Shown here: in pieces, positions 10,116-42,949 of the stretch | How the letters are laid out: every line of letters begins with the position of its first letter | Position numbering within the stretch: the first letter of the stretch is position 1 | Source: Gonapodya sp. JEL0774 | Taxonomy: Eukaryota | Assembly (NCBI GenBank): GCA_027604505.1 | Contig: JADIIX010000124.1 | Location: 1 to 64,000 of the forward strand | DNA length: 64,000 nucleotides | Direction of reading: 5' to 3' | Notes under the pieces: model-generated | Seen by the model: the letters and a program-made list of their open reading frames with translations, nothing else | Databases searched by the model: none | What the model was told of the DNA's origin: nothing | Made by a program: the position numbers and the translations under genes

Positions 10116-13100
10116 TTAGGACGGCGCACATGAAAAGGGAGGTATTAAAACAAGTATGATGCTCACGTCAACGATTGTGTCAACGATGCAATCACTGTTG
10201 TTGCTGCCAGTTACAAAGGAACGACATGACACATAAGTCTCATCCATCTTGCAGTTCATGTCGACAAATGGCGAAATTGACTTCGATCGGGGAATGTGTG
10301 TGTTTTGATCACCGATTGTGCAAGAAATCGAATATGATGTTTCGGTGAGCGTTTTTCTATCATAAGATGGAGCAATGCTCTCCACGTCCGATTTCATTAC
10401 GAGTGATGGGCTTGCAATTTCCGCACAGGATTTCTGTAAGGAGATGACGAGACTTAGACGGCGTGACGATAGGAACTGGTGACGGCATACGAACACGTAC
10501 GATCTTATGGGGGTCAGGCCCCAACGTGGAATTGATTCCAGCTATTATCTCCGAAAGTTCCTCTGTTTTGTTCGAGATTTGCAAGTTTTCCCCCGAAACA
10601 GAATCTTTTGAGAAAATTCTGCCTCCTTTCTCCACGTCGCCCGTGAATGTCTTAACAGCTTCAGTGGGAAGCTATGGGTGCAGAAGAAATGATGTCATTT
10701 GACTTCTGAATGAACGAAAACTCCAGATAGCGTACAGAACCACTCACTGCCAAAGCATCTGTGTCCACCGTCAACAAAATGCCTGCATGTCTTGCGCTTT
10801 CATTCAGGTGCCAAGCTTCCTTCCCAATTAGAATATCCGAACTTCCCATGACGGAGTAAGTGGCATCCGTCGATACCTCGATGAACCCGCAAGAATGAGA
10901 GCCGCCCAATGGCAAGTGTACGGGTGAATGCTCACCTCAGTAGCAATATCTTCGCATTCTGATTTCATACCATTCCCCGGCTGACATTTACTGTCTTCAA
11001 GTGGATCTTCGAAGACAATCTATGCACACACAATCAGCGTGGTACCGATAGAGCGTATCAATCTCAACATACGATTTTGGTCTCTTCTCTGCTGTCAAGT
11101 TCCTGAACTTGATCCCTAGGACCGTGGTTGCGGTTATCGCACGTCGTCTTCAGAGACAAGATGAGTTATCTCTAAACATTTAGATCGAGCGACCGAACAT
11201 TACCCTACCTCTCCAAGATGACTGCTGGATCTCCGCAATATTCTCGTTCCCTTAACGCCTTTCTCAATTTCTTTCTCACTGTCAACGCCAACCTTCGGGT
11301 TTGATCGAAGATGAGCCTTGAATTTCAACACAGAAGATAGCAAGCTCACCTGCATGGAGTCCATGGTGTAGCCACCTTCAACGATTTTGCGTACATACTC
11401 CTTGCCACCCTCCATCTTGTCAACGACAATTTGCTTCAGTACACGGGAAATCACCTTATCAAGTATCCGCAAAGATGTATTCACCTCTTTTGCTTCTTCG
11501 TATTCAGGAGCAGAACCAGTCTCGGCAGAAATATCCTTCAAATGTCAGTGTAAGTCTATGAAGGGTAGGAGACAGAGGCGACGCGAACCCACCTCATTCA
11601 AGAAAATTTCCGTATTAACTCTCCACTCCTCCGTTTCACTTCCAGTGCTCTTTGTTTTATCGCGCGTGAAACCATTGTAGGTAAGCCTCAGTCTGAAAAT
11701 TGCAGTGAAACCCAGACGCGAACTCACTTTGAGCTTTTTCTTGTCACAGCAGCAGGCGTCAGCCTTCGTCGCGTGCTTCTGTTCTTGCGTCTGCTTCTCT
11801 TGTGAACCAGTTTCGTCAGCCGAATCGAATGTTCCCGTCCCGCCAGTCAAACTGGCCGCATCTCGGACACCCTGGGCGCAAGCGTAGAGAACCATGACCA
11901 TATTGAACGACAGATTCAAAGAGCAAACGCAAGAGTAGCACCGCACCAGTTTATCTTGAGCTTCGCACTTAAGGCCGTCAATAGACCTTATATCCCTCTT
12001 GAGACCCATCTCCGTGGGCTGTGCCTTGCAGTTCACAATCGACGGACCCAGTTCAATACGCAAGTCAGACTTGACAGTGGTGCGTCGTTCAGGTATAAAG
12101 TTGTCGTGTCTCTTTTCACCAGAACAGCAAGAATCGATGAGCTGACTGATGCAATGGCTCATCACAATCACCGATGTACTCACATCGATCACACTGAATT
12201 CATAATCCTTGCTCGAACTAGAAGTTTCAGTGTCATACAGCTCTTGCGTGCCGATCTTTGTAAAATACATGTGCTTCAGACCGTTTGAAAATATGGAAGG
12301 CTACGAAAAACTTACAAGTTTGCCGTAGATATCGCAAATGACCCCAGAAGCTTGCTCCTCGCGAGGTTGGCAGTTGTTCGATTTCCCTTCCAGAATCTTA
12401 GAACCGCCCACGAGTTATCGACAAGCTCACAGACGGAACAACAGCCACATACCTCCCACAGTCCATCACCAACCTTCATCAAAGGACTCGAGCTCCCAGT
12501 GCAGTTCTCATTTTCGTTATCGTTCTCCTGTGTACTCTCCATCTTCTCGTGGACGTCGACCTCGAGGATATGACATGTGGAACTGTCATTGGCACCGGAT
12601 AAGAGTTTACTTTCCAGTTTCTCTTGGACGTCGACCTTCGGGATGTGTTTTGGAGGACTGGCATTGACACCGGAGAAAGATCGAACGAAACATACCTGTA
12701 GACCCTTTGCATCGCAACAAGCCACAAATATTTCCTGTTCCGCTCTAGCAATCTTCTCAAGCAACTCGTTGACTTCAGCCTTTCCACGCGGCGGTCAGCG
12801 TACATCTCTCAATCAATGGACGCTGTCGAGAAAATACCTCTTTGGCATTTCCACCAGTAATAATCTCACTTCTTCCTTTCTTGTTGATTGATACATCCTC
12901 CTTCTTGTCACAGATGGCACATAATATCGTTCGATCGTGATGATGAGCTCTAGCCAACGAACCAAATTGACGATTGACGCACCACCTTTAATTCCACAGC
13001 AGTAGCGATCTCCAAGACCCTTCTTCCTTGTCGAATGTTCTCAACGATTGTCCCCAAGTTCATCTTGAGTTCAGCATCGTTCTGACCAAGCAGATGGGAA

Positions 13101-13630
13101 CGGATCTCGAACTCCTTCTCGGTGCAGAGCCTCTCGATGCTCCTCGGCTTGATGCTCTTTGCGCTCTTGAATTCTCCCTTCGACTTCAAGATCCCGTCGT
13201 TCTTCGTCTCCCGAGTACTCATCTCCCTTCCCATCCCAGCCATGAACTCAGACACATCGCCACCACCCTGGGCGACAGCATAGAGGGCGAGGCTGTTCAC
13301 CACAGCCGTAGCGGCGCCACTAAAGACGCGTACAATCGGTTTTAGTACCCGAATCTTAGACTTTTTGGAGACATTTCCGTTGTCGGCGATCTGGCTCTCT
13401 CCCTCTTGAGCTTGCTCGACACGGCCGTGCATCAGGCCGGTACTGACTACCCTCGAGCTCTTCAAGCGATCGGTTGTAATCTTGGACGCGATAGATGGGA
13501 GGACGAACCACCGAGGCTTGGGGATTGATGGGAGACACTGGGAGGACGTGGAAGAGGAGGAGGAAAGGGAGGAAGAGGGAAGAGCGAGAGTGGTGGAAGA
13601 TGCAGAATGCATGATGGAGACAGCGATCTT
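10116..13630 (-). pseudogene. Interrupted coding-like region upstream of the kinase, with internal repeats
   Basis: Six or more protein-like minus-strand ORFs in shifting frames (10116-10496, 10360-10635, 11200-11541, 11545-12270, 12312-12764, 12950-13819). An in-frame TAG lies just before the kinase ORF. Confidence 0.4.
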
Positions 13631-13709
13631 GTGTGCGATGCGAGAATACGAGATTCTGTACTCCGTGCGCGAGTGTGGAATGGGAAGACGCGACTGCCCT
13701 GCGCAAGGG

Positions 13710-13825
13710 GTCGGAGATTTTTTTTGTCCACAGGCAGAGAACCCAAGCCCTGTTAGGCGACGCAAGGAAAACAAATTTAGAGACTGACCAGTGACCTGGA
13801 AGGATCTTTGGCGATACATTTCTTA
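13710..13825 (+). repeat. Dispersed repeat family B, copy 2
   Basis: Direct, diverged copy of 4850-4979. Confidence 0.85.
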
Positions 13826-14011: not shown

Positions 14012-17000
14012 CTACGCATTGACGCCGACCATCTGCTTTACATCTTCAATTGCATTACCCTGAAATAGCATGATAGAGCGCGTTGGCGTTTTATTGTCAG
14101 ACGAGTCAGCAAGCCGAGACACTTACCGTTAATTTCAGATCAAAGGTGTCCACTAAAAACTGCAGCGCAGCGGGTCTGATGAAAGCTGGTGCCCTCGGCC
14201 CCACTCGAATCTGTGCAAAAAAGCAGTGAGATATGATAAGTTAGTCAAGTTTGATGTTCAGCAGGATACTCACCCCCTTGATATTAAGGTGTAGCAATGT
14301 AAGCAAAACTGCGATAGCCTTTTGCTCAAACCACGAGATGACCAGATTAAGCGGAAGCTCATTAACAGAGCACTTGAAGTGATTTGCAAGAGTAACTGCA
14401 ACCTGAACCGCTCCATAGGTGTCGTTGCACTGTCCCATATCCAAGAGTCGTGGTATGCCGGTTTTTCCGATCGTGGCATACTGCAATTTATCACCGAGAA
14501 TCCTGTACTTTCCACATCCAAGGGTCAGAACCACAGAAGTGGAGGGCAAATTCTCCATTACATCGGTGTCTGCACGGTGACGTGACCCAAAGAAGAAATT
14601 AGTCAGTCACTAGATTCTCATTGGGGGATTAGGGCGATACGTACAGTAGCTTCTCTCGCCCTCGAAGCCATCGCATCCTGAGCACGAAAATAAATTGGGT
14701 TAAAAAGATAATGATAAGTTCAGGCAATGTTCGCACCAACCTCCGATGACGTAGAACCGTGTGATGTCTCCTTTGCCGATGGAGTCAATGACCGTGGGAG
14801 CGACCGAAAGGATAGTTTCAAGGCCGAATCCCACATTGTAGCTCTTCGCTGGCTTGCCGAAGGGATCTCTCGGGTATGTGTACTCTTTATCCGTGTCCGA
14901 GAACCCTGCCATTTCTTGTGCCATTTTGATGACTTCGGAATAATTGTAATTTTTCACCACTGGACAGCCAGGGAACGCAACAGCACTGTAGAATGGTTCC
15001 AGTAGAGTGTCTATGAGACGGAATCCAGAATTGCGATGCCGACCTCTCGGAACTCACCCAGCGGTGAAAAGCCGGTTCTTGATATCGTCTTTCGGGGGAG
15101 TTAGGCAATTCGTTGTCATCTTAGATAAAGAAACGTGCGTTGAATGCATTATTCAGTTAGGAAACCTAAGTTGTAAAGTATTCACCACGATGGGGCCTGG
15201 GAAGTGCGGAAACTCAATCGATTGCCTTTGCCTGACAGTACCGAAGAGAGTCACGGTTTGGGGTTCAAGGAATGCTTAGGGCTGATCAAAAACATTCAGA
15301 GTGCAAGGACCAACCATGCCACGCCAAAGTGTCCCACAAGATTGCCGTATTCTCGAAGTTTCGGGTATCCATGGGCTTTAGTTGACAACATGAAGACACA
15401 CAGAATGAACCTAACCCACTCTCACAAAGCCCTTCGCCAAAAACAACCCACCTGGAAGCATTTCCCCGTGGGTGTAGATGTTGATTCCAGTGCCCTTCGT
15501 TTGCTCCAAGAGCTCTTCGAGATACTTCATGTCGTGTCCGGAAATCAAAATGGCCTTGCCAGGAGAAGGAGCGATAGGAACAACGTGTGGGCTCTGCGTA
15601 CCGTGCTTCGCATTGCCTTTGTGAAGGGTCTCCATTGTGATCAAGTTCTAACCATGGACCGTCAACAACGCGTTGCAGGCTATCACAGTAAAGTATTTGA
15701 TACTCACCGCTTCACCACACTTCAGTAACATTTCAACGACTTTGCTCAAATCCCCCACATCAGGTGAAAGTGTGAATGCCAGCGCCTCGTTGACGAAATC
15801 AAAGATGCGGATATCCTCTTCTCCCATTAACACAGCGTGGTCGGCATACGCCGCCACTCCTTTGAGACCGTACTATAAAATGCAGATGGAGTAGGTTGCT
15901 AAAGGAATGCGGAGCTCAACGCCAACTCACCACCAACATCTCCGCCAATCCAACAACGACATCATTCTTGATGGTCTTAAACTTTGCCAGCACTCCAACC
16001 AATTTACCCTTCTCCGCCAGGATAGTAGCATCTGTTATAGTACCACTCAAATCTGGGATAGGACATTTGAGCTCCTTTTCGGCGAGGCTTATACACAACG
16101 CCTGGTAAACTTTTTGTCTCTCTGCGACGTGGTTGCTGCGGTCGCATGGATTGAATTTCAGAATGTCATGAGCACAATAGCACGATATTTCCTTACATAC
16201 CGAGTGCCCACGATATAGTCCCGAATGGAGTCCGGGTCGAAGTTGACATTTGTCAATGTCGAGAACAGCGCGAGCAGCGTAAACCTATCCGAATCCCGTA
16301 GTCTGATTGATTCTTCAAGAGCAGCGGCAATGACGCTGGATTTGGTGGCCGCGGTCCCAGCAAGTACACGGATTTGGTGGTTGTACCAGCCTAGACGCTT
16401 GACGCAGTCCACGAGGAGATCTTGGAGGGCGGCAACTGCGAACAAAAGAGTTATGAGCCATACCGCCAGACACTCAGCAGCACAATAGAATGCTGATTCG
16501 ACCCACCTTCGGGAGTTTTCCCACAGACTCCGATTCTACGAGACAAAATAAAAAGCCCCAAAAAACACTGTCAGCGCTCCCGCATATCGTCCTTCCCAAA
16601 TAGCCGCAACTCACGTCGTGCACCCTTTCGCCTGGAAGGTCTGCTCACACTGAAAACAGAGCATCTTACTCCCTTCAAAAACAGTTGCCAACGGCTTCTC
16701 CGACTCGGCCTTGACAGAGTAATCTTTCAGGAGATTCTCGACATCCACCTCTCTCGTAAACGCCTCCACATTCCACCTGTTTGCAGTTCCGGGAGTTGTG
16801 CTCTTGAGTTCGGCGAGTTCGGCGGCTGCTGCTTGTGGGTGAAGATTCCGAGCGTTTGCGATGCATTCTTGAATAGACTGCTCGACGACGGAAGGAACTA
16901 CGCCGCCGGGGCCGGTGTAGATGTAGACACCGTGGTTTTGAAGGGTTACGGATACGCTGGTCGACTTGGCGATCTTTTCGGTGATCTAATTGTGCATGCG

Positions 17001-19519
17001 ACGAGTTAGCATTGAGGATTGTTCGATTTTCAGACAGTCAATCAGTGAGGCTCACAAGGGTTCCCTTATCCATCGCGGCAATCTCAAGCTGCAACCCACG
17101 GAACCACCAATCAGACGCAAGCCCACTGACTGAAACACAAACCCAGAATGCCTAACCTTGCACACTCCTTCCTTCTCAAACTCTTTCAGTTCATCTCCAA
17201 ATACAAAGTCTTTGTCCTCGTCTCTGAACCCGTAAAACAACTGAATCGTGCTCGTTCGCTTTCCTGCCTTTCGAAGCGCGCTCCAGTGTTGGAGGAGCCC
17301 ACGCATAACGCCAATACCGGTGCCTGTACGTCCATCACGAAGATCACTCATTCGAGCGCTCTACGGTTTGAGTAATGATTGGCACCCACCGAGCCCTACC
17401 CCTACGATGGGCGTTTCAGGCACTGGCACAGTAATTGGTCCCTGCTGAACCTTGACAGCAACCGTATCTCCCGCCTTCAGGCTACTCATGTACCCCGTAG
17501 CCAACCCTTGGAACCGATTCACCGGGTTCGATTTCACTGCCCACGATTCTTTTATGTAAAGGATGTCGGCAACGCTGGGGGACGTGAGAGGCGAAGTCGC
17601 AATGGAGTAGTATCTAACGACGTGTGAGCGATGGAGACATAACTTATGAGTGAATACGGTTCCTCTCAAAATCTCCAGTCTCAATGAACCCACCTAGCCT
17701 GCAACCTTGGCACGGTGGAAAGCACCTGCTCCAGCGTCATTTTTGCCGACGGCCACTTCTCCATCGCATCAACCACCGAAAATACTTCCTGGGTTGTCAA
17801 CTTGGCATACGCATTGCCATCCTCCATCCCCTCGGCAAGATCCAACAGCGCATCCCGGTCTGATGGGTCGGAAGCCACCACGGACATGGCTTCGAGGAAG
17901 CTTCGCGTGGCAAGACCAGCCAGATCAACGTGGTGAGTGAGGATGGTGGAAAGTTTTGCGGTCATAGGAGACCCGGTATCTACGGGAGTGAGGGTGAGTG
18001 CAGTGGAGAGAGTCACGCCACCAGGGAGGAGGAGAGATGAGAAGGCGCGGGAGACGAGGGAGGAGGGATTCGAAGGGGAAATCTGCGGGATAGAATAGTA
18101 GCATAGAGAGATTTATTAGCAGTTTTCGAAGAGCTGCAGTAGTGAGAGATGAATGAACTACTCACCAAAACATGTCCTACCAAAGGATACTCTCCCGTCT
18201 CTAGTGAAAGCACCTTAATCTCCCTATCACTCGCGGGCTTGGAAACGATTTTGTTGTCCTTCACGGTCACGCGGCGGAACCCTTCTGGAACATCACCACC
18301 TACCACCGCATCAGCAGTGGCAACCGCGATGCGCACAGACACTGGCAGGGATGATGTGGTGGTTCCGGTGGTTCCGAGCCTTTGCCAAACGGATTTGCAA
18401 AAGGGACGGAAGGTGGACTCGAATCCGCCGAGGGAGGATTCGTCTGCGAAGGCTGCGGTGGAGGAGGTTTAAAATCATGGATTGGAACTGAGTGGGGCCC
18501 AAGAAGAGCGTGCGAGGTTGTGTACTTTACCTGCGGGAACGAGCTCAGAGACCTTCAGCTCCCAGAGTCGAGAGTCGAGCCGGCGTGCTGCAAGGTTGAA
18601 GTTGTCCTGTTGGGAAGTAAAGTAGCGGTAGAAACAACACAGGAAACACAACAGACCAAAAGAAATAAAGAAGGTATCAGGCTTGCTTCAAGCTGGTGTA
18701 AAAGATGCAAGGATGTATCCCACCTTGTTGGTCTTGTTTCCCAATCCAAATACTGACACGGTGCAGTTCTTGAGCCGTTGCGCTGTGAGCTTTGTGTCGG
18801 CTCTTTCTAGTTCTTGCCAGAACGAAACAGCATTGTCGGGGAATTCGCCTTGGAAGAGAACACATTACGAAGGCATGTGGGCGAATGAGCTTCTATTCTC
18901 GGCTTCCCTTTGAAATGAAAATTATGTGGTGCACGCACCATTGTAAAACGTGGATACCATCACTATCACGTGGATCTCTTGCGCCAGAGTTTTCACAACA
19001 CCACCCGATGCACGAGCGTTGTTGACGAAGTCTGCCATCGACATGAGACGTGTAGGGATTCCACGAGATTTGGCAAAAGCGGAGAATGTTTTGGCGAACG
19101 CCTAATTCAGTATTTGTAAGACGATGCGAGTGAGTTGAAACACGTCATTTCATGAGACATGCGACTTTATTTTCTCACCTCGGTCGTTCCCGTCTAACCG
19201 AATCAAAGAAAAACCAAGTTGGTAAGAGTGGTTCTGTGGAATAGGAAAAGCCCAGCTAACGGGGACACCCGCCTGACTCCCGAAGAGCACGAGAAACTTG
19301 GCGTCCTGTGGAGCCGACTTAACTCCCGCCGCAGTCACCGTACGAAACTGCCTCGATAGCAGGTTTTGTGGAGTCGACTTTGCGCTGGAGAGAGTTGAAC
19401 ACGGGCAAGCGGGACAAGAAGGGAGATGAAACTCGACAGATTCTCCCAAGTGTCGCCGCCAGAGGCAAATGAAAAAAGTGCTCCACGTACCCGCCAGCAA
19501 GATCTTCGATGTCAGCCAT
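14012..19519 (-). CDS. hcp: Diflavin (flavodoxin + FAD/NAD(P)H) reductase fused to hybrid cluster protein (hydroxylamine/NO reductase)
   Basis: Spliced product: [10 protein letters not shown]...LVLFGSQTGTTE...STFYNGEFPDNA...FGLGN (FMN domain); [44 protein letters not shown] (FNR-like domain); then [78 protein letters not shown] and ...MVGVNA* (HCP). Confidence 0.93.
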
Positions 19520-40164: not shown

Positions 40165-42949
40165 TCACGCCTCAGCCTGCTGCGACCTCCCCTACACAAC
40201 ACCACGGACCCAAACGAAACGACCCACTGTAAGCCCACACCCACGCCACCAAAACGGACAAAAAACAAAAAAAAAAACACTCACCACGCCCCGACCACCC
40301 CTCGCCCCGTACCCTCCCCTCCACCCACCACCGCCTCCTCCCCTGTACCCACCACCGCCTCCTCCACCTCGCCCCCCTTCCCCCCCCCGTGGGGCGCCCC
40401 GCCCCCGGTACCCTGTGTTTTTATGGTTTTATTTAACGGGGCGCGGGCCGCGACGGTGGGGGGGGGGGGGGGGGGGAGTGGTTGATGCAAGCGAGGAGGC
40501 CACGAGATCAGATCGGGGTTTCCACAAAACACAAACAAGCAACACAGGAGAGGGGGTGTTGGTTGGGTTGGCTCACCTCCACGGTACCCGCTCGTGTACG
40601 TTCCGGCTTGTCCAAATGTTTCCATGTTTATCCTCCGTTCGCGGTAGTGGAGCTCGCGCCAGTTGGGACNNNNNNNNNNGCGCGGAGTAGAAGGGCAAAA
40701 TATGCACGAACCGCATTGTTACTGGACACGATCACCACCGGTGCAGGCGACGCAAGAAGGGGAGGGGAGAGTTGGGCCGCGATATCGCGTCCTCCTCCCA
40801 TTCCACCCCCCTGGAGAAAATGCTCACGTGCTCGCTTCGACCTGCCTATCCTTGGCCTCGCACGAAATATCGTCAAAAAAGCCCGACTTGTCGTAGAACC
40901 CGCTCCCTTTGGCCTTTTCCACGTCTAAATCGATCTCCCCATCCTCAGACTCCTCCAGAGCCGGACTGGCAGACGCGGCCCGCCCCACCGACGCCGACGC
41001 CGGCGTACTGGTCACCGGCGGTACGATCGCCTTGGATATCTCTTCGAACTTGCGGTTCGCCTCGTCGAAGTCGTAGTCGTCTTGAGGGACGGGTGGGCCG
41101 CGAGCGCCTCCTCGGCCTCGGTGGAAGGCACCTCCACGGTAGGGGATGCCGGTTGGGCCGCCGAAGTTGCCCCGGCTACGGGTGTTGGAGTCGGGGATGG
41201 GTGGCACGACGATGGTCTCGTTGGCTTCGAGGGTGGGAGGGGTGCAGTGGGTCAATCACCGCCAAAAAGGCCCCCGCAAGGCACCTCGCACCGGCACGAC
41301 GAGTATCGGTCTAGATCCATTCGATACCGTCTGAAAATATCTCACCTCCAACTTTCTTTCCTTGCACCACGTCCGCCAGCGTGGTCGCCTTCTTCACTTC
41401 ACTGTCTCCGTTTACATGACCATCTGCAGAGCCCGGCGCCGCACCCAGTCTCTTCGCTTGTTGAATTCCCGATTGACCTTGCTGCGCAGTCCGACCTTGC
41501 TGCGGTGCAGCTCCGGCCTGTGGCTGCTGCGGCGGCTGCACCTTCGGACCCACCACTCCCGCTGCCCGCGATGCTTTGGGCTCCTTCTTCACAACCACGG
41601 CGATCGGCTCTGGGGTCGCGACCGCCGCCGATACCGAAGATGTAACTGCAGGCGCGGTCGTGGATGGCGCCTGAGAAGCAGTCTTCGTGTCTGGCTTCTT
41701 CGTGCCGGGAGCTTGTTGTGAAAATCCACCGGTCGAGGTAACTGGTGGAGTCCCAATCGGACTCGGCGCGGGTTTGGCAGCATCCGAGACCTTGAGCGCC
41801 TTGAGGCGTGATGCGGCATCATCGATGGGGGAGGTTAGCTGGGGAACCGCACTCGGCGCACCTGACACAGGAGGGCTTATAGGTGTTTGGTTTGGCTGGT
41901 CGAATGCAGTGCCAGGAGGTTGGGAGGAGGGGAGTTGTTGTGGCATCTTTGGAACATACGAAATGCGTGAATCTCAGAAAAGGCACATCACAGCTTTCTC
42001 GCGTTTCCACACAGGCACGAATGTCGGATGTTTGGGTAAACGGCAACCCCAAAAGACACTCACTCCGTTACCAGGCATTCCCATCGATTGAAGTTGCTGC
42101 TGTAGCTGCGCCCAAAGAGCGGGATTCTGCTGAGCAAGTTGCGCCATAACATACGGGTTCATGAAAGACTGCTGAGGCCCCAGGCCAGGGCCTGGCATTG
42201 GTTGGCCAAAGGGTGGGGGGCCGCCGAACGGGGAGAATGGGAGGAACGGCGAACCTCCATAAGGATTGTAGCCAGGACCGGCCAGAGGATTGAAAGAGTT
42301 GGGGGGGGGCAGCTGTGTTGATATGAAGGTTGATAAAACAACATCACTAAGCCGAGGGGACTGATTTCGTTTGTTTGAATGGTTTGCTAGGGCAGCTGAC
42401 TTCGCAAGCGTGTCCGTACGCGCCCCAGAAAATTCCACAACAAACCCTCTAAAATGGACCTCACACTCACACCATACGGCTGTTGCTGTGGTATTCGCTG
42501 TTGAGGGCCGCCGAATCCACCTAAAGGAGGAAAACCGGGAGCAGTTGAAGTGGGAGGGCCAACAGGCGACTTGGAAGCAGTGCCCGTCTGAATTGCCGGT
42601 TCAGATTGAGAGCCAGGCGCCTGACTTGGCTGGTCGTAGTCGAGATAGGTTATATCCGAGATATCCGCGCCCTTGAACATGATCATTTCGTACACCGTGT
42701 CCACTGCGCCAATCTCGTCAGGGCCACCACCTTTACGACCCTCTGTTCCGAAAGAGCGCACTGCGATAATTTCCAATGGAAAACCATGTGGGTGAGTGCT
42801 AAAGAGGGCCGAGAAGAAGTTGGCGGAAACATCCACGCACCATTGTCGAGAGTCAGCGAAGACTGCTCCTCGTCCAGGTGCGCAAGCACGCCAACGTAGC
42901 GAATGCCTGTCTTCGACAGGAGAGAAATTCGACTGCCCACGATCGCCAT
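40165..42949 (-). CDS. SCD6: Scd6/LSM14 mRNA decapping activator
   Basis: LSm domain VGSRISLLSKTGIRYVG...VRSFGTEGR, FDF box DYDFDEANRKF, FFD box FYDKSGFFDDISCE, TFG box ERRINMETFG and an RGG tail. The gene spans the assembly gap. Confidence 0.92.
40670..40679. other. Assembly gap (10 N)
   Basis: Run of N in the sequence. Confidence 1.

What the first reader, a model, noticed from the sequence alone, without database searches (positions are those of the whole stretch)
14012..19519. Self-sufficient hybrid cluster protein: HCP fused to a diflavin reductase in a fungus
Seen: one 371-nt exon (16985-16615) reads without a stop from the reductase C-terminus ([10 protein letters not shown]...RWNVEAF) through a ~30-aa linker into MLCFQCEQT...GC, so the fusion is not a gene-merging artefact. 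The cubane motif is C-x2-C-x8-C-x5-C, and the hybrid-cluster ligand motifs are present. Established: HCP is mainly an enzyme of anaerobic prokaryotes and some microbial eukaryotes, with NO/hydroxylamine reductase activity. In E. coli it takes electrons from a separate NADH oxidoreductase (Hcr), and this shorter Cys spacing is the class I/III type rather than the E. coli class II type. Inference: a one-polypeptide NAD(P)H-FAD-FMN-FeS chain for nitrosative-stress defence under low oxygen, with the HCP part probably acquired horizontally and since intronised. I cannot tell from here whether this architecture is already described.
Basis: partly seen in the sequence, partly recalled or inferred. 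Interest (0 to 1): 0.88.

Follow-up and report, generated by a model that had tools for sequence, protein, structure and literature searches.

The report
Reductase-fused hybrid cluster protein, chytrid-like fungus
This water-mould-like fungus has an intact gene that joins a two-flavin electron-feeding module to a complete iron-sulfur "hybrid cluster" enzyme in one chain; the same fusion occurs in scattered microbial eukaryotes, and it likely works as a self-contained nitric-oxide-removing enzyme, which would name the electron donor that is unknown for this enzyme class.

Summary
Observation confirmed. A 25-exon gene (19519-14012, minus strand) encodes 1231 aa: FMN domain, FAD/NAD(P)H domains, a 31-aa linker and a complete class I HCP (C-x2-C-x8-C-x5-C; hybrid-cluster ligands intact). 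The window matches Gonapodya sp. JEL0774 HDU93_001107. It is not a fungal one-off: 74 of 120 listed long HCP hits carry the fusion (early-diverging fungi, ichthyosporeans, glaucophytes, oomycetes, euglenozoans, Chromera), some from transcriptome assemblies. Both halves form one clade (HCP 99/95; reductase SH-aLRT 100). A separate prokaryote-to-Gonapodya transfer of HCP is rejected (AU p=9e-5), and the gene tree conflicts with the species tree. The reductase is remodelled: the CPR 2'-phosphate residues and the FMN-shielding Tyr178 are replaced, and Cys630 is Thr in this lineage, so NADH use is plausible (inferred). Likely mechanism: NAD(P)H to FAD to FMN to [4Fe-4S] to hybrid cluster, reducing NO; untested. 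The fusion was noted once in print (Cyanophora, table footnote, PMC8003979) and this scan found it twice before in Basidiobolus-type genomes. I found no biochemical study. It matters because the class I HCP electron donor is stated to be unknown.

The parts
14012..19519 (-). 25-exon gene, 1231-aa diflavin reductase-HCP fusion
   Evidence: junction exon 100% identical to P0001, Gonapodya sp. JEL0774 HDU93_001107
19300..19519 (-). N-terminal 38 aa; no membrane anchor, net charge 0, so likely cytosolic (inferred, no targeting predictor run)
18373..19299 (-). FMN (flavodoxin-like) domain, about aa 39-200; Asn147 (18727-18729) replaces CPR Tyr178
   Evidence: coordinates derived by hand from the exon table
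19194..19272 (-). Intron 2, predicted GC-AG; this donor restores the phosphate-binding loop as in G. prolifera, whereas the NCBI model inserts 3 residues
17430..18291 (-). Connecting and FAD-binding domains, about aa 228-460; Arg399/Tyr401/Ser402 FAD motif intact
16758..17429 (-). NAD(P)H-binding domain, about aa 461-616; CPR Ser596/Arg597/Lys602/Tyr604 read Ala/Met/Leu/Thr; Cys630 reads Thr564 (16914-16916); Asp675/Trp677 read Glu614/Phe616
17056..17088 (-). 33-nt exon 11 carrying the altered 2'-phosphate site; missed by the NCBI model, present in the G. prolifera protein
16615..16985 (-). Exon 12 (371 nt), spans reductase end, linker and first three cubane cysteines
16665..16757 (-). 31-aa linker with conserved D-x-E-N-x-L motif
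16523..16658 (-). [4Fe-4S] motif C650-x2-C653-x8-C662-x5-C668 (class I spacing), split by intron 12
14015..16664 (-). Complete HCP domain, aa 648-1231, with hybrid-cluster ligands His913, Glu937, Cys981, Cys1080, Cys1108, Cys1137, Glu1171 and Lys1173
   Evidence: (TIGR01703 572 bits, cut-off 360.8)

Best explanation
The gene encodes one polypeptide in which a divergent diflavin reductase is fused to a complete class I hybrid cluster protein, and it likely works as a self-sufficient NAD(P)H-driven reductase of nitric oxide. Shown: single reading frame, domain order, intact cluster ligands and FAD motifs, single origin of the fusion, conservation across eukaryotes. Inferred from CPR/NOS/BM3 chemistry: hydride from pyridine nucleotide to FAD, one-electron steps via a mobile FMN domain to the N-terminal [4Fe-4S] cluster next to the linker, then to the hybrid cluster. 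Inferred from E. coli Hcp: 2 NO to N2O under low oxygen. Inferred from lost 2'-phosphate residues: NADH used as well as or better than NADPH. This copy is predicted cytosolic; a G. prolifera paralogue has a presequence-like N-terminus.
For: Open junction exon and clean model. 74 fused proteins among 120 listed, including transcriptome-derived full-length ones (Cyanoptyche 1313 aa, Papus, 'Hpha', MMETSP) and 8 of 80 metagenome loci with one uninterrupted ORF. Cys spacing 2-8-5 in 73 of 74; ligands kept in 71-74 of 74. FAD Arg/Tyr and pyrophosphate Arg567 equivalents 74 of 74, Ser457 72 of 74, terminal aromatic 74 of 74. Reductase halves one clade (SH-aLRT 100); HCP halves one clade (99/95). AlphaFold of the Hyaloraphidium member: pLDDT 88, pTM 0.80; HCP half superposes on D. 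vulgaris HCP, TM 0.92 by target, rmsd 2.6. PMC10210160 states class I HCP reduction by NAD(P)H would be exergonic but needs a partner protein.
Against: No activity, cofactor or expression data. In the five Gonapodya/Hyaloraphidium proteins Cys630 is Thr and Ser596/Arg597 are Ala(or Ser)/Met; the whole family lacks the Tyr178 aromatic that sandwiches FMN in CPR (PMC3105092), so flavin binding or hydride transfer could be weak. The reductase is less conserved than HCP between Gonapodya species (71-74% vs 89%). NAD_binding_1 is below cut-off. The function of HCP itself is debated: NO reductase, S-nitrosylase, hydroxylamine reductase (PMC7412212). No nitrogen-oxide genes were seen among 51 window ORFs scanned.
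Confidence: 0.6

Rival explanations
1. Self-sufficient as above, but the physiological substrate is not NO: hydroxylamine, peroxide or another acceptor, serving as an anaerobic electron sink.
For: HCP function is called debated or elusive (PMC7412212, PMC10210160); Chlamydomonas HCP4 was proposed as an electron sink (PMC8003979).
Against: Active-site ligands match bacterial HCPs; low hydroxylamine affinity has put that role in question (PMC7412212).
Confidence: 0.15
2. The protein acts mainly in NO signalling as an S-nitrosylase, with the reductase setting the redox state of the clusters.
For: S-nitrosylase role reported for E. coli Hcp (as summarised in PMC7412212).
Against: A permanently fused reductase favours reductive turnover (inference); no evidence here for SNO targets.
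Confidence: 0.1
3. In this lineage the NAD(P)H end has decayed; the FMN domain relays electrons from an external donor, or the reductase is only structural.
For: Cys630 to Thr and loss of Ser596/Arg597 in 5 of 5 monoblepharid proteins; an FMN-only HCP fusion, P0033, nests inside the family.
Against: The same substitutions are fixed in both paralogues of two Gonapodya species and in Hyaloraphidium, with FAD and pyrophosphate motifs intact, which fits retuning better than decay.
Confidence: 0.12
4. Two adjacent genes merged by annotation.
For: No RNA evidence for this locus; Met648 could serve as an internal start.
Against: No stop at the reductase end; conserved linker; transcript-derived full-length homologues.
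Confidence: 0.02

Closest known systems
Class I HCP of Desulfovibrio vulgaris/desulfuricans and Methanothermococcus (PDB 1e2u, 1gn9, 8cnr)
   Same: C-x2-C-x8-C-x5-C, full-length fold, hybrid-cluster ligands; about 39-40% identity for the modelled Hyaloraphidium member
   Different: Those are stand-alone, with an electron donor stated to be unknown (PMC10210160, PMC10502027); here a diflavin reductase is fused in front.
E. coli Hcp-Hcr (class II)
   Same: HCP supplied from a pyridine nucleotide by a flavoprotein; best PDB sequence hit is E. coli Hcp 7de4
   Different: Hcr is a separate FAD/[2Fe-2S] protein; class II spacing is x2-x11-x6. Here the relay is FMN, in the same chain.
Diflavin reductases and their fusions: CPR, P450 BM3/CYP505, NOS, NDOR1, CysJ, PNO
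   Same: FMN-connecting-FAD-NAD(P)H order and motifs
   Different: Only 24-29% identical to the CPR and P450-fused reductases found; own clade; reductase is N-terminal to its acceptor, unlike BM3 and NOS; Tyr178, Arg597, Lys602, Tyr604 replaced. Parent family unresolved: FMN profile scores syNOS 91, CPR 83-87, NDOR1 82, CysJ 39-43 bits; ESM features point to NDOR1 at 0.96 (lead only).
[quoted passage not shown]
   Same: P0007 from C. paradoxa has this architecture and lies in the same subclade as the window protein, so the footnote most likely describes this family
   Different: One footnote, no analysis in the passages read; 'sulfite reductase' (CysJ) is the poorest match of the diflavin families tested.

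Membership tests
Hybrid cluster protein (Hcp) | Curated HMM above cut-off | tested here: met
   TIGR01703 572 bits vs 360.8; PRK05290 612.7 vs 367
Hybrid cluster protein (Hcp) | Seven hybrid-cluster ligands (His, 2 Glu, 4 Cys) | tested here: met
   His913, Glu937, Cys981, Cys1080, Cys1108, Cys1137, Glu1171, located by motif and by alignment to 1e2u/7de4; ligand assignment of the motifs is partly recalled
Hybrid cluster protein (Hcp) | Bound [4Fe-4S] and hybrid cluster; NO or hydroxylamine reductase activity | not testable with these tools
   needs purification, EPR, assay
Class I HCP | Short N-terminal Cys motif without the class II insertion | tested here: met
   x2-x8-x5 as in D. vulgaris 1e2u; E. 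coli x2-x11-x6
Class III HCP | About 100 aa of the middle region absent | tested here: not met
   584-aa HCP aligns end to end with 548-558-aa class I/II chains; class III 7e0l matches only part (definition PMC10502027)
Diflavin reductase superfamily | Flavodoxin domain plus FAD_binding_1 plus nucleotide-binding domain in order | tested here: met
   Pfam first two above cut-off; third by alignment and fold, below Pfam cut-off
NADPH-cytochrome P450 reductase (CPR) | 2'-phosphate motif Ser596/Arg597/Lys602 | tested here: not met
   Ala534/Met535/Leu540 here; His at Arg597 in 55 of 74, Phe at Lys602 in 57 of 74
NADPH-cytochrome P450 reductase (CPR) | Tyr140/Tyr178 FMN sandwich | tested here: not met
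   Phe104 and Asn147; Asn or Thr at Tyr178 in 64 of 74
NADPH-cytochrome P450 reductase (CPR) | N-terminal membrane anchor | tested here: not met
   max 19-residue hydropathy 0.15 vs 1.86 in Daphnia CPR
CysJ (sulfite reductase flavoprotein) | TIGR01931 above cut-off; grouping with bacterial CysJ-like proteins | tested here: not met
   110 bits vs 668; separate from 4 bacterial CysJ-like proteins
NDOR1/Tah18 or PNO reductase module | Grouping in a tree | not tested
   no full-length NDOR1, PNO, MTRR or NOS sequence was obtained as an outgroup; FMN-profile scores do not separate NDOR1, CPR and syNOS

The most novel reading that the evidence does not exclude
A eukaryote-specific enzyme family, born once and passed between supergroups, couples NADH directly to NO reduction in one chain through a retuned diflavin module. 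It would be an unrecognised route to N2O in zoosporic fungi, oomycetes, ichthyosporeans and aquatic protists, independent of P450nor and flavodiiron proteins, and the first class I HCP with its physiological electron donor identified.
Probability: 0.25. Interest if true: 0.82.

Novelty: new variant of a known kind. Interest (0 to 1): 0.6.

Why it matters
Two 2023 papers state that the electron donor of class I HCPs is unknown (PMC10210160, PMC10502027). A natural fusion supplies a donor and gives one protein in which turnover can be assayed with NAD(P)H alone, without artificial mediators, so the long-debated substrate question becomes directly testable. It also points to a possible NO sink and N2O source in early-diverging fungi and fish- or plant-associated water moulds, and to a diflavin reductase with an apparently changed coenzyme pocket.

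Tried and rejected
No whole genome is held, so paralogue DNA and other nitrogen genes of the organism were not examined. No RNA holder was listed; no evidence either way. A predicted complex of the FMN domain with the HCP domain gave no verdict. A single eukaryotic HCP clade appeared (SH 92-98) but not in the bootstrap tree (prokaryotes on one side in 31% of bootstrap trees), so I do not claim it. The careful mixture-model tree and the AU test for opisthokonts did not finish. GC3 does not separate the halves (0.60 vs 0.57; 11 vs 13 introns). Neighbouring genes give no functional clue. van Lis 2020 (FEBS J) is not held and Hagen 2022 was not read; either may mention the fusion. Literature searches: fusion or distribution; CPR residues.
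Full report
Observation. The region 19519-14012 on the minus strand splices into 25 exons and one 1231-aa frame with no internal stop; introns are 58-117 nt, 23 GT-AG and one GC-AG. Exon 12 (16985-16615, 371 nt) runs from the end of the reductase through a 31-aa linker into HCP Met648. Used as a query against proteins of 218-2000 aa it found 4 proteins among 721 candidates: P0001 (100%, Gonapodya sp. JEL0774 HDU93_001107), two G. prolifera proteins and a second JEL0774 protein. Gonapodya is a monoblepharid fungus. My model differs from P0001 at two places (intron 2 donor, exon 11) and agrees there with the G. prolifera protein. Boundaries rest on sequence and homology, not RNA.

HCP half. TIGR01703 scores 572 bits against a cut-off of 360.8. 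The cysteine spacing is x2-x8-x5, as in D. vulgaris 1e2u; E. coli 7de4 has x2-x11-x6. The domain is full length, so class I and not class III (PMC10502027, passages). All seven hybrid-cluster ligands and the nearby Lys are present, and kept in 71-74 of 74 fused proteins. An AlphaFold model of the Hyaloraphidium member (67% identical to the G. prolifera orthologue; pLDDT 88, pTM 0.80) matches solved HCPs first and diflavin reductases next.

Reductase half. Rat CPR numbering was transferred through Daphnia CPR. Kept: Arg454, Tyr456 and Arg567 equivalents in 74 of 74, Ser457 in 72, an acid at Asp675 (Glu in 72), an aromatic at Trp677 in 74. Changed: Tyr178 is Asn or Thr in 64 of 74; Arg597 is His in 55; Lys602 is Phe in 57; Tyr604 is Thr or Ser in 69. 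Ser596, Arg597 and Lys602 are the 2'-phosphate motif and Tyr140/Tyr178 sandwich FMN in CPR (PMC3105092, passages; PMC12472590, passages). A regular-expression check found the Ser-Arg pair in 33 and an aromatic at Tyr178 in 33 of 38 non-HCP diflavin reductases. The window protein goes further: Ala-Met at 596-597 and Thr for Cys630, shared by the 5 monoblepharid proteins, while 63 of 74 keep Cys. That Cys630 aids hydride transfer is recalled, not read. The 74 include about 7 near-identical Aphanomyces euteiches entries, so counts are not independent events.

Distribution. A search with the HCP part among proteins of 691-2202 aa gave 143 hits, 120 listed; 74 carry FAD_binding_1 plus Prismane, 72 of them also Flavodoxin_1. 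Named carriers: Gonapodya, Hyaloraphidium, Podochytrium, Siphonaria, Polychytrium, Basidiobolus, Creolimax, Sphaeroforma, Cyanophora, Cyanoptyche, Aphanomyces, Thraustotheca, Achlya, Saprolegnia, Chrysophaeum, Chromera, Papus and Rhabdomonas (partial). Several names show transcriptome assemblies of 1160-1310 aa, so the fusion exists as one mRNA in relatives. Eight of 80 metagenome loci hold it as one ORF; one lies beside a SET-domain ORF. None of the best 80 of 547 prokaryotic loci is fused. With the Basidiobolus reductase as query, the top 29 of 67 hits are all HCP-fused (37-100% identity); the CPR and P450-fused reductases that follow are at 24-29%.

Origin. HCP trees: 182 rows by FastTree (unnamed rows under 480 bits and rows over 80% identical dropped), 54 rows by IQ-TREE, 33 rows with bootstrap. 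Fused domains form one clade (SH 88; 99/95); one short unfused protein, P0162, lies inside it and may be a truncated or split member. Alphamonas and Pygsuia stand-alone HCPs are the next branches (98/92, 98/96). Holding the monoblepharids with the prokaryotes is rejected (AU p=9.4e-5). Reductase trees give the fused clade 100 and the same two subclades; the nearest outsider is a Muranothrix multidomain protein. On full-length proteins of 23 rows, Fungi and stramenopiles are each rejected as clades (AU p about 1e-4): chytrids group with ichthyosporeans and oomycetes (100/100). This fits eukaryote-to-eukaryote transfer or old paralogy with many losses; I cannot separate them. Roots rest on prokaryotic or CPR outgroups. 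The parent diflavin family is unresolved.

Mechanism. Inferred: NAD(P)H to FAD to FMN to cubane to hybrid cluster. PMC10210160 (passages and section 3.2) gives -250 to -150 mV for the class I hybrid cluster and notes that NAD(P)H would be an exergonic donor needing a partner protein. The linker is more conserved than the reductase between the two Gonapodya species (28 of 31 vs 71-74%) and has Asp 73, Glu 67, Asn 72 of 74, so it likely has a structural or docking role. NO reduction is taken over from E. coli Hcp (PMC7412212, passages). The N-terminus looks cytosolic; the G. prolifera paralogue P0003 and several members of the second subclade have basic, presequence-like ends (no predictor run). 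HCP is mitochondrial and hypoxia-induced in Acanthamoeba (PMC13632651, passages).

What is known. PMC8003979 Table 4 footnote d says the Cyanophora HCP gene is fused to a gene for sulfite reductase (passages, table and a supplement search). I found no other mention and no biochemical study in searches; subscription papers, notably van Lis 2020 and Hagen 2022, were not visible. PMC1484493 (passages) covers protist HCP transfers without this fusion; PMC6993867 (passages) describes PNO. This scan noted the family twice in Basidiobolus-type genomes and a split head-to-head pair in a diatom; I did not test the diatom claim.

Verdict. A real, intact member of a small eukaryotic fusion family: known parts, new arrangement, catalogued but apparently unstudied. 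The monoblepharid branch has the most altered reductase active site among the named members. Interest 0.6.

Noticed in passing
proteins P0115, P0219, P0033, P0094: Other HCP-donor fusions: HCP + cytochrome b5 + FNR (902 aa), cytochrome b5 + HCP (773 aa), FMN domain only + HCP (756 aa, nested in the fused clade), rubredoxin + flavin reductase + HCP (about 720 aa). HCP has repeatedly captured electron donors.
   Followed up: partly
proteins P0072, P0073, P0085: Saprolegniales paralogues have His to Gln and persulfide Cys to Ser/Thr changes among the hybrid-cluster ligands while keeping the reductase; likely a different cluster or function.
   Followed up: no
protein P0297: Muranothrix gubernata 1560-aa protein: DAO + BFD [2Fe-2S] + Pyr_redox_2 + DUF1667 + diflavin reductase; nearest non-HCP relative of the fused reductase.
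   Followed up: partly
window 19491-19519 and 16665-16757: The N-terminus starts with a D-I-E-D-L motif similar to the linker's D-V-E-N-L; the unfused Alphamonas HCP, sister to the family, has a similar acidic motif before its Cys motif (1 of 66 unfused HCPs).
   Followed up: partly
   Followed up: no
window 8443-60707: Neighbours by Pfam: kinase, KH, dihydroorotate dehydrogenase, dual-specificity phosphatase, Erv1/Alr, LSM14, Zn2Cys6, RRM, peptidase S58, 6-phosphogluconate dehydrogenase, eRF1, LRR; no functional cluster. Ten N bases at 40670-40679.
   Followed up: no
window 12953-13822 (-): 290-codon open stretch directly downstream, no Pfam match.
   Followed up: no
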